This document shows positions 3,914 to 5,914 of a DNA stretch of 64,000 nucleotides, in pieces (position 1 is the first letter of the stretch; every line of letters begins with the position of its first letter). The position numbers and the translations under genes were made by a program. The stretch lies in assembly GCF_009914755.1 (NCBI RefSeq), contig NC_060934.1; one strand, 5' to 3'. The stretch is from the human T2T-CHM13v2.0 reference genome, Homo sapiens. The notes below the pieces were generated by a model. The model ran no database searches and was not told the DNA's origin. It saw only the letters and a list, made by a program, of their open reading frames with translations.

Positions 3914-4790
3914 TTAAAAACTTCCTATTTCTGAAGAAAGGAAACAAATTTAAATGGCTGGTAACATTCGTCAATTCATTCAATTTCCATTCAGTGCCCA
4001 ATTATGTGGCAGACACTGTCCTGGCCAGAGCCTGAACCAGCAGGGGAAAAAAACCCTGCCCTGTTGGAGCTTACTTCTAGAAAATGGTTTGTTTTTTTAA
4101 ACGGGAGGCTGAAGCGTCCTCTATAATGGCGGTGAGAGGCCTGGCAGAGTCCTGAAGCCCCCTCGCCACAGCACAGGTCGACGTGACCAGGGCTTTGTGG
4201 TCCCAGCACTGTGGTCCCTTGCCCCGGCCTACTACGGAATCTCCCAGGCAGCCTTCACAGATGCTGAGGCCCAGGCCCACCCGAGATGGATCCCACCGTT
4301 TTTGGGAGGCTGGGGCTAGGCATGTGTATTTTTCTTTTTTTTTTTGAGACAGAGTCTCACTCTGTCGCCCAGGCTGTAGTGCAGTGGGGCGATCTTGGCT
4401 CACTGCAACCTGTGCCTCCTGGGTTCAAGCGATTCTCCTGCCTCAGCCTCTGGAGTAGCTGGGATTACAGGGCACACGCCACGACGCCCCGCTAATTTTT
4501 GTATTTTTAGTAGAGACAGGATTTCACCATGTTGGTCAGGCTGGTCTCGAACTCCTGACCTCGACCTCCCAAAGTGCTGGAATTACAGGCGTGAGCCACC
4601 AGGCCTGGCCGGCATGTGTATATTTAAAATCCTAAGGTGATTCCACTCTTTTGCGGGTAGAAAACTAGAGTTCTAGAGGAAAGGAAATAGAAAAAGAGAG
4701 AAACTGAAAAAAAGGGGAAAACAGGGAGACTTAAAAGATGAAAACAGTAAAGGTAAAGGGAACAAAGGGGGCAAAAGAGAAATGGTACTT

Positions 4791-5163
4791 CAGGAGGACG
4801 CGCCATCTGGCTCCAGCTGGGGCTGCGGGAGTGGGAATGAGCGATGGCGAGCCTGTAGGCTGTGGGTGGCGGCCTCGGCGGCCGGCAGGCCATGCTGGAG
4901 TACCTGCCATGATGAAGAGGAGGACGTCCCACAAGTTCCGGACAGATGTGGCCACCAAATTAATCAGGAAACAAAAGGAGCTTAATCTTAGAAAAATGAT
5001 AAGGGATATAAAAGCTCCCTAGGAGTCAAACTACTGGGGCGTATGGTGTCAGACCTGCACTGCTGTCTGATGGCTCTCTCTACCTACGCTTGCTCCATCT
5101 CCCGTTTATCCTCCATTTATGTTTCCTCTAATAAATTACTGCACATCTAAGAAAAAAGAAAAA
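4791..5163 (+). pseudogene. Processed retrocopy of a short transcript containing a SPIN1-like segment, antisense within SEPHS1 intron 8
   Basis: GC-rich 5' end, AATAAA at 5130-5135, decayed poly(A) at 5149-5163. Flanking direct repeat aaaagagaaatggtactt (4773-4790) / aaaagaaaaatggcattt (5154-5171). 4885-4934 encodes AGHAGVPAMMKRRTSHK, close to the SPIN1 N-terminus AGHAGVSANMMKKRTSHK as I recall it. Confidence 0.75.
5088..5146 (-). other. SEPHS1: Candidate alternative (cryptic) SEPHS1 exon encoding D-V-Q-stop; 3' boundary uncertain
   Basis: Acceptor CCATTTTTCTTTTTTCTTAG|ATGTGCAGTAA in phase with exon 8 (TCA G|AT GTG CAG TAA). Possible donors after 5088, 5084, 5055 or 4904. Confidence 0.65.
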
Positions 5164-5174
5164 TGGCATTTTAA

Positions 5175-5462
<288 letters not shown>

Positions 5463-5914
5463 TGATGTGCCTGCCTCAGCCTCCTGAGGTGCCAGTATTA
5501 CAGGCAAGAGCCACCACACCTGGCCCCTTTTCTCTCTATCATTCTTAAAACAACGTTAGACAATTTTCAAGGAAAAAAATATCACCTGTTCAAAGTAACC
5601 TAGGGGTATTACAGTTAATTTCAAATGCGAAGCTTTCAGTAAAAACTGAATGCTACCTTATTTCCCCCATCACCATATCCTTGCATCAAAAAGAGCACAG
5701 GCCACTCAACCTCAGCAAGGCTGCTGGATCCACCCAGGATGGCGGGGACCAGACCCACCGGGAGGAGGAAAGGCACCAGCTGCTGCGGAGGCCGAGGTCA
5801 GCAGCATGGAACTCGAACAGAGTGGGGGCCCACTCGGGGTGGGGCTGCTGCTTTCTCGCTGAGCTTTCTGTTAGCCTCACTATTTAGTCCTCAGATGCGC
5901 CCAGCATCCTGTAC

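What the first reader, a model, noticed from the sequence alone, without database searches (positions are those of the whole stretch)
4773..5171. Unannotated-looking retrocopy preserving a short, unusual SPIN1-like spliced transcript
Seen: 18-bp TSD (15/18 identical), GC-rich 5' segment (4791-4888), AATAAA 13 nt before a poly(A) relic. Recalled knowledge: 4889-4934 (gccatgctggagtacctgcc-atgatgaagaggaggacgtcccacaa) matches the small SPIN1 exon encoding GHAGVSANMMKKRTSHK, and the similarity seems to stop where that exon ends. Inference: this is a fossil of an isoform made of a first exon, this micro-exon and an alternative terminal exon (4935-5148). That terminal segment has TATAAAAG and AATAAA and may itself be LTR-derived. 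Such an isoform would skip the canonical ATG exon and all Tudor domains.
Basis: partly seen in the sequence, partly recalled or inferred. Interest (0 to 1): 0.75.

Follow-up and report, generated by a model that had tools for sequence, protein, structure and literature searches.

The report
Old retrocopy of odd SPIN1 transcript
A 360-base dead copy of an ancient spliced SPIN1 messenger RNA sits in a SEPHS1 intron; this is an ordinary kind of genomic fossil, but the RNA it records joined SPIN1's first exons to exons that today lie millions of bases away on chromosome 9.

Summary
Window 4791-5153 is a processed, L1-type retrocopy. It is flanked by a 15/18 target-site duplication (4773-4790 / 5154-5171) and ends 13 nt after AATAAA. 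It has four exon blocks, not three. (1) 4796-4888 is SPIN1 exon 1. (2) 4889-4934 is the SPIN1 micro-exon, joined exactly at the GT/AG borders with 60.4 kb of intron and the ATG exon missing. (3) 4935-5045 is "X", whose only other copy in the genome lies on chr5. (4) 5046-5150 is "Y", 93% identical to chr9:104,376,582-104,376,686 (T2T). That chr9 site has a polypyrimidine-CAG acceptor just upstream and the same poly(A) site, and lies inside an old interspersed repeat. A sister retrocopy on chr5 has its own duplication and poly(A). It shares exon 1, the micro-exon and X, then continues into two different exons from chr9:106.53 Mb. All mapped sources lie on chr9, + strand, in order, 3.8 and 5.9 Mb distal of SPIN1. 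The "single LTR-like terminal exon inside SPIN1" is not supported. The element is most likely inert. What is unusual is the extinct or unannotated SPIN1-initiated transcription unit it records. Interest is moderate to low.

The parts
4773..4790 (.). 5' copy of the target-site duplication
   Evidence: 15/18 identical to 5154-5171 and the best 18-mer pair between the flanks. Reached in 3 of 2000 shuffles and in 8 of 654 real pairs.
4791..4888 (+). SPIN1 exon 1 (5'UTR, CpG-rich), 5'-shortened
   Evidence: 4796-4888 aligns to C9:100542546-100542641 with 75 matches, 18 mismatches and 3 gap columns. The source exon ends at CAG|gtgagg. The chr5 sister copy starts 41 nt further 5' in SPIN1 coordinates.
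4889..4934 (+). SPIN1 coding micro-exon
   Evidence: Aligns to C9:100603041-100603089 with 43 matches, 3 mismatches and a 3-nt deletion. The source is flanked by ttacag| and |gtaagc. Translates to GHAGVPAMMKRRTSHK.
4935..5045 (+). Exon X, source unknown; contains the in-frame TAG (5020-5022) and the TATAAAAG
   Evidence: The only other copy is in the chr5 retrocopy: 99 matches, 12 mismatches and 1 gap column once a later Alu is left out. Genome-wide DNA search at E<=10 and two pattern scans with up to 3 mismatches find only these two places.
5046..5150 (+). Terminal exon Y with AATAAA (5130-5135)
   Evidence: 98 of 105 identical to C9:104376582-104376686. That site is preceded by ttttctctttttacag|, and its similarity to the window ends at the cleavage site. 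It lies in an old repeat: 5 other loci at 74-82%.
5149..5163 (+). Short A-rich poly(A) relic, overlapping the start of the 3' duplication
   Evidence: Sequence reads AAGAAAAAAGAAAAA. The chr9 source has no A-run here.
5154..5171 (.). 3' copy of the target-site duplication

Best explanation
Window 4791-5153 is a fossil processed retrocopy. A germline RNA started at the SPIN1 promoter. It was spliced from exon 1 to the 49-nt micro-exon (skipping the ATG exon), then to exon X, then to terminal exon Y, and was polyadenylated at Y's AATAAA. L1 machinery reverse-transcribed this RNA and inserted it into an A-rich site in what is now the last intron of SEPHS1, antisense to that gene. The splicing, the poly(A) site and the duplication are shown. 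The L1 mechanism, the germline origin and an age of tens of millions of years are inferred. The copy carries no SPIN1 ATG exon and no Tudor-like repeat. Its longest SPIN1-frame reading ends at a TAG inside X. It is therefore most likely an inert, non-coding pseudogene. Its value is as a record of the parent RNA. Together with a sister retrocopy on chr5, it shows that SPIN1's 5' exons once belonged to a transcription unit with alternative 3' ends. Those ends now map 3.8 Mb (Y) and 5.9 Mb (Z1-Z2) distal on chr9.
For: Intron loss at exact splice sites:
- Exon 1 to micro-exon removes 60,399 nt bounded by gt..ag.
- Y begins right after a polypyrimidine-CAG acceptor in its chr9 source.

Poly(A) and duplication:
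- Similarity to the chr9 source ends at the cleavage site 13-14 nt after AATAAA, where the window has an A-run instead.
- The 15/18 duplication abuts both ends.

Skipped and absent parts:
- The ATG exon (MKTPFGKTPGQRSRADA, then G|gtaggc) lies between the two used exons.
- No Spin-Ssty match on chr10 (0 of 17 matches).

Independent sister copy on chr5 (C5:70160603-70165338):
- It has the same exon 1, micro-exon and X junctions.
- After X it continues with Z1, whose source is C9:106529104-106529247 behind the acceptor tgcaacag|.
- A 121-nt intron is removed, and Z2 runs to C9:106532655.
- It ends in AATAAA, poly(A) and its own 13-nt duplication (12 of 13 identical).
- This rests.
- The two copies diverge exactly at the X 3' border, as alternative splicing predicts.

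No RNA family matches inside 4791-5153 apart from one noise hit at E=0.54.
Against: - The poly(A) relic is very short, and the duplication is A-rich and only moderately unlikely by chance (about 1%).
- Exon X has no detectable source.
- The parent RNA would span 3.8-5.9 Mb in today's gene order, far beyond usual genes.
- No outgroup genome was available, so no empty pre-insertion site could be shown.
- No expression data were available, so inertness is inferred only from structure.
- The genome-wide DNA search has limited sensitivity. It missed the SPIN1 exon hits that local BLAST found, so an X source below about 90% identity could have been missed.
Confidence: 0.88

Rival explanations
1. The parent RNA did not come from SPIN1 in today's gene order. 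Either the ancestral 9q22 order placed X, Y and Z close behind SPIN1's 5' exons, or a partial SPIN1 5' duplicate or chimeric gene near those exons existed and has since been lost. This refines the best explanation rather than replacing it: it still gives a retrocopy, but of a different parent.
For: - Every mapped source is on chr9, + strand, in transcript order. That is unlikely by chance and argues for linkage in cis.
- A 4-6 Mb primary transcript is implausible.
- Z lies inside a young inverted duplicon, 98.98% identical over 2252 nt, that also carries the two chr9 NUT-family genes. This region has been rearranged.
- X is missing from the genome.
- Both retrocopies share 7 of 96 exon 1 positions and 1 of 49 micro-exon positions against today's SPIN1 (counted by eye).
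- Recalled and unverified: in mouse, Iars1, Nutm2 and Spin1 are neighbours.
Against: - No genomic duplicate of SPIN1 exon 1 or of the micro-exon with its introns exists today.
- The shared differences can equally be changes on the SPIN1 lineage itself.
- No outgroup was examined.
Confidence: 0.5
2. The parent RNA arose in the present gene order, by megabase-scale intergenic cis-splicing or by trans-splicing of SPIN1 5' exons to distal chr9 exons.
For: The same facts on splice sites and chr9 order. Two isoforms share the exon 1, micro-exon and X core, which suggests a recurrent product rather than a one-off.
Against: - No transcript evidence could be examined.
- X has no source in today's genome.
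- The distance is far beyond known read-through chimeras.
Confidence: 0.3
3. It is a chimeric retrocopy made by L1 reverse transcriptase switching templates between unrelated RNAs (a SPIN1 mRNA fragment plus others), not a copy of one spliced RNA.
For: The blocks come from loci megabases apart, and one block has no source.
Against: - Every mappable junction falls exactly on a canonical splice site in the source.
- The micro-exon to X junction recurs in an independent insertion that has its own duplication.
- All sources are on one chromosome and one strand.
Confidence: 0.04
4. The interval is a DNA-level duplicate of the chr5 locus, or a single transposable element.
For: 83-92% similarity to chr5 over 4795-5045. 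Y belongs to a repeat family.
Against: - Similarity to chr5 starts inside exon 1 and stops at the X border.
- The flanks are unrelated, and each copy has its own duplication and poly(A).
- Exon 1 and the micro-exon map to SPIN1 exons.
- The repeat copies share only Y plus about 20-40 nt upstream of it.
Confidence: 0.02

Closest known systems
L1-mediated processed pseudogenes / retrocopies (general features as reviewed in PMC5470649; passages seen)
   Same: Intron loss, poly(A) at the parent's cleavage site, flanking target-site duplication, insertion in an A-rich site, no promoter carried along.
   Different: It copies a short non-canonical isoform (about 360 nt, no SPIN1 ATG exon and no Tudor-like repeat) rather than the main mRNA. 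One exon has no extant parent.
Processed pseudogenes used as fossils of old splice variants (Shemesh et al. 2006, recalled; only the phrase 'genomic fossils' was seen in search listings)
   Same: The retrocopy preserves an exon-skipping, alternative-3'-end isoform.
   Different: Here two retrocopies together reconstruct a transcription unit whose exons are now megabases apart.
PIPSL, a retrocopy of an intergenically spliced PIP5K1A-PSMD4 RNA (mechanism recalled; one search showed only that PIPSL, Akiva et al. 2006, is cited as a new gene)
   Same: A retrocopy of an RNA that joins exons of more than one locus on the same chromosome and strand.
   Different: The PIPSL parents are immediate neighbours and the copy is a long ORF. 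Here the partners lie 3.8-5.9 Mb away and the copy has no meaningful ORF.
X-linked intronless SPIN family genes (names SPIN2/3/4 recalled)
   Same: Spindlin-derived copies elsewhere in the genome.
   Different: The X-linked copies are uninterrupted frames of 250-279 aa, each with three Spin-Ssty repeats. The window copy has none.
Mouse oocyte Spin1 isoform initiated in an MT-family LTR (passage in bioRxiv 10.64898/2026.08.22.746432)
   Same: A Spin1 transcript partly built from a transposable element.
   Different: In mouse the repeat supplies the promoter and first exon. Here an old repeat supplies the acceptor and poly(A) signal of the last exon, and the start is the normal SPIN1 exon 1.

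Membership tests
L1-type processed retrocopy | Parent introns absent, with junctions at the parent's exact splice sites | tested here: met
   Exon 1 to micro-exon junction; Y acceptor. The X borders coincide with the micro-exon donor and the Y acceptor.
L1-type processed retrocopy | Ends at the parent's poly(A) site and is followed by an A-tail | tested here: met
   Homology to chr9 stops 13-14 nt after AATAAA. The window continues with AAGAAAAAAGAAAAA, which is short.
L1-type processed retrocopy | Flanking target-site duplication | tested here: met
   15/18. Reached in 3 of 2000 shuffles, 8 of 654 real pairs and 1 of 78 A-rich pairs.
L1-type processed retrocopy | L1 endonuclease-like target (TTTT/AA on the nicked strand; motif recalled) | tested here: inconclusive
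   The duplication starts AAAAGAG and is preceded by GC, which gives CTCTTTT/GC on the bottom strand. The T-run is present but the AA is not.
L1-type processed retrocopy | Empty site in an outgroup species | not testable with these tools
   No other primate genome is held.
SPIN/SSTY protein family gene | Spin-Ssty (Tudor-like) repeats, PF02513 | tested here: not met
   17 matches genome-wide: 3 at SPIN1 on chr9, 14 on chrX, 0 on chr10.
SPIN/SSTY protein family gene | Canonical start-codon exon | tested here: not met
   The ATG exon at C9:100580644 is absent from the window copy.
   6 of 6 other Y matches (the chr9 source and 5 repeat copies) begin at 5045/5046. X has no other copies except chr5.
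   No repeat library is held. The copies share about 130-175 nt around Y. Any LTR-like look of the AATAAA region is only my recollection.

The most novel reading that the evidence does not exclude
The chr10 and chr5 retrocopies are the only surviving record of an extinct anthropoid gene or transcription unit. That unit ran from the SPIN1 promoter through the SPIN1 micro-exon and a now-lost exon X to alternative ends: one beside today's class-I tRNA synthetase gene (IARS1 by recall), the other in the NUT-family duplicon. This would mean those three 9q22 loci were once adjacent and were later pulled apart by rearrangement, with loss of X. My unverified recollection is that they are adjacent in mouse. 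Retrocopies would then serve as markers of ancestral gene order.
Probability: 0.4. Interest if true: 0.55.

Novelty: new member of a known kind. Interest (0 to 1): 0.35.

Why it matters
The element itself is one more unannotated, dead retrocopy and needs no functional explanation. It matters modestly as evidence in three ways.
- It shows that SPIN1 exon 1 was spliced directly to the micro-exon, skipping the ATG exon, in the ancestral germline.
- With its chr5 sister it documents alternative 3' exons that today lie 3.8 and 5.9 Mb away, plus one exon that no longer exists in the genome.
- It therefore offers a cheap, testable handle on the rearrangement history of 9q22 (the region of the NUT-family duplicons), or alternatively on very long-range intergenic splicing.

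For annotation, 4791-5153 should be labelled a SPIN1-derived processed pseudogene fragment. The acceptor at chr9:104,376,582 (T2T) should be checked as a possible unannotated exon.

Tried and rejected
- The repeat finder did not report the duplication because its seed was too long. I re-tested the pair by script.
- The genome-wide DNA search with the whole element did not return SPIN1 at all. Local BLAST against 110 kb fetched around SPIN1 did. Negative genome-wide results therefore carry limited weight.
- The source of X was sought by DNA search at E<=10, by two pattern scans with up to 3 mismatches, and by sensitive BLAST in 110 kb of SPIN1, 10 kb around Y, 20 kb around Z and about 4 kb of the second duplicon copy. 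The best hit there was 30 nt at E=0.033. All came back negative. The 3.8 Mb between SPIN1 and Y could not be fetched in full.
- Genomic duplicates of the SPIN1 5' region: none found.
- Rfam over 4600-5600 gave only Alu-related hits at 5238-5524 and one noise hit at 13.8 bits, E=0.54.
- Literature: 'SPIN1'+'retrocopy' gave 0 papers. 'SPIN1'+'chimeric transcript' gave 5 papers, none on this. 'SPIN1P1' gave 1 irrelevant paper. I therefore found nothing in print on this copy in the held library. Retrogene catalogues and browser tracks could not be consulted.
- Coding function was rejected. The SPIN1 frame runs from the micro-exon's ATG ATG to a TAG at 5020-5022 (read), and the chr5 copy has a 1-nt indel in X, so there is no sign of constraint.

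Full report
**What is in the window**

The sequence at 4773-5171 reads as follows:
- an A-rich 18-mer;
- a CpG-rich stretch;
- a segment that translates to GHAGVPAMMKRRTSHK;
- about 215 nt of unique-looking sequence ending in AATAAA (5130-5135), 13 nt, then an A-run;
- the 18-mer again, at 15/18.

In my script this 18-mer pair was the best between the two flanks. A match this good was reached in 3 of 2000 flank shuffles, 8 of 654 real window pairs with the same spacing, and 1 of 78 A-rich pairs. The repeat finder did not list it because its longest exact run is 6 nt.

**Where the pieces come from**

The window's own genome could be searched. Spin-Ssty repeats (PF02513) place SPIN1's Tudor-like exons at C9:100616654-100629366. 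The other 14 of 17 matches are on chrX and none is on chr10 or chr5. I fetched C9:100530001-100640000 and ran sensitive BLAST against it.

| Window block | Source | Alignment | Source borders |
|---|---|---|---|
| 4796-4888 (exon 1) | C9:100542546-100542641 | 75 matches, 18 mismatches, 3 gap columns; many differences at CpG | ends CAG\|gtgagg |
| 4889-4934 (micro-exon) | C9:100603041-100603089 | 43 matches, 3 mismatches, one 3-nt deletion | ttacag\| upstream, \|gtaagc downstream |

Both hits have E=4e-14. The next best hit in the 110 kb has E=0.037.

The 60,399 nt between the two exons are absent from the window. That interval contains the only ATG-AAR-ACN-CCN motif hit, at C9:100580644. It reads MKTPFGKTPGQRSRADA and ends at a G|gtaggc donor. 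This is the start-codon exon, and the retrocopy skips it.

**The rest is two exons, neither in SPIN1**

Nothing in the 110 kb matches 4935-5150. The genome-wide search gave nine matches:
- the window itself;
- two pieces on chr5, covering window 4795-4980 at 83% and 4971-5045 at 86%;
- C9:104376581-104376684 at 93%, covering 5045-5148;
- five weaker loci at 74-82%, covering only the last about 100 nt.

All six non-self matches to the last block begin at window 5045 or 5046.

At the chr9 locus the match is preceded by ttttctctttttacag|. It ends 13-14 nt after AATAAA, where chr9 continues with unrelated sequence and the window has its A-run. 98 of 105 positions are identical. So 5046-5150 ("Y") is a terminal exon with its own acceptor and poly(A) site, 3,773,492 nt distal of the micro-exon on the same strand.

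The five weaker loci and the chr9 site share about 130-175 nt, including 20-40 nt upstream of the acceptor. Y is therefore an exonised part of an old interspersed repeat. I could not name the repeat because no repeat library was available.

Block X (4935-5045) is not repeated. A DNA search at E<=10 and two pattern scans of 30 and 34 nt with up to 3 mismatches found only the window and chr5. Each pattern scan gave 2 forward hits, 0 reverse and 0 in the reversed-pattern control.

**The sister copy on chr5**

C5:70160603-70165338 begins 41 nt further 5' in SPIN1 exon 1 than the window copy does. It has the same junctions from exon 1 to the micro-exon and from the micro-exon to X. Its alignments:
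- micro-exon against SPIN1: 46 of 49 identical;
- X against the window: 99 matches, 12 mismatches, 1 gap column, with a later Alu left out.

It departs from the window exactly at the 3' end of X. It then continues with two further blocks:
- Z1, whose source is C9:106529104-106529247, behind tgcaacag|;
- Z2, whose source runs from C9:106529369 to C9:106532655.

A 121-nt intron reading gc..ag in chr9 is missing between Z1 and Z2.

The chr5 copy ends at the source's AATAAA and cleavage site. That is followed by poly(A) and a 13-nt duplication, AAAA[A/G]CAGGCTTT. It is thus an independent retrocopy of a second isoform of the same unit.

Z lies in an inverted duplicon pair. The first 2252 nt compared are 98.98% identical, and a truncated copy sits at C9:109068900-109069914 on the minus strand. 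The pair also holds the two chr9 NUT-family genes, at 106488091-106495522 (minus) and 109103510-109110902 (plus). Class-I tRNA synthetase exons (IARS1 by recall) lie 50 kb distal of Y on the opposite strand.

**Mechanism**

Shown:
- splicing at canonical sites;
- use of the parent's poly(A) sites;
- target-site duplications in both copies.

Inferred:
- L1-mediated target-primed reverse transcription of germline RNAs.
- An age of roughly 25-45 million years. This comes from 6.7% (Y) and about 10% (Z) divergence from the sources, using a recalled neutral rate of about 1-2e-9 per site per year.

The copy lacks the ATG exon and all Tudor-like repeats. The SPIN1 frame from the micro-exon's ATG ATG stops at TAG 5020-5022. 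The chr5 copy carries a 1-nt indel in X. No RNA family matches. I conclude that it is inert, at about 0.85 within the retrocopy reading.

**What remains odd**

All mapped sources are on chr9, + strand, in transcript order, but they span 3.8-5.9 Mb, and X has no source. No genomic duplicate of SPIN1's exon 1 or micro-exon region exists today. The micro-exon query with its introns returned only itself plus the exon-only chr5 match, and the exon 1 query returned only itself.

Both retrocopies share 7 of 96 exon 1 positions and 1 of 49 micro-exon positions against present SPIN1 (counted by eye). That fits either change on the SPIN1 lineage or a separate source copy.

I favour a different ancestral arrangement or a lost chimeric copy (0.5) over megabase-scale cis- or trans-splicing (0.3). 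Neither was tested, because no outgroup genome or RNA data were available. Template switching and DNA duplication are disfavoured by the splice-site precision and by the independent duplications.

**Comparison and novelty**

This is a processed pseudogene of a non-canonical isoform, which is a known kind (review passages in PMC5470649). It is closest in spirit to retrocopies of intergenically spliced RNAs such as PIPSL (mechanism recalled; name seen). TE-chimeric Spin1 isoforms are known in mouse oocytes, but there the repeat supplies the 5' end.

I found nothing in print on this copy in the held library. Retrogene catalogues could not be checked. It is a new member of a known kind. Interest is 0.35, carried by the long-range parent rather than by the element.

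Noticed in passing
L033/L034 = C5:70160603-70165338 (+): Sister retrocopy made of SPIN1 exon 1, micro-exon, X, Z1 and Z2. It has its own 13-nt target-site duplication and poly(A), and has later been interrupted by Alu insertions, one of them inside X.
   Followed up: yes
L003/L037 = C9:104376582-104376686 (+): Exon-like site with a strong acceptor and AATAAA inside an old repeat, 50 kb from class-I tRNA synthetase exons on the opposite strand. It may be an unannotated terminal exon.
   Followed up: partly
L035 = C9:106529104-106532655 (+), and L024/L026 = C9:109068900-109069914 (-): Two-exon 3' end (Z1, a 121-nt GC-AG intron, then a 3.3-kb Z2 with AATAAA). It lies in an inverted duplicon pair, 98.98% identical over 2252 nt, that also carries the chr9 NUT-family genes. 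The second copy loses similarity about 750 nt into Z2.
   Followed up: partly
window 5238-5524 (-), T-run 5222-5240: An Alu element (Rfam SRP-like hits of 63 and 36 bits) immediately 3' of the retrocopy's duplication. It is a separate insertion.
   Followed up: partly
C23:56368009-56368395 (-): An X-linked SPIN-family copy with an in-frame TAG in two Spin-Ssty repeats. The neighbouring copies are intact frames of 250-279 aa.
   Followed up: no
window 4660-4790: A purine-rich, low-complexity tract (AG/AAAG-type) forms the insertion target region.
   Followed up: no
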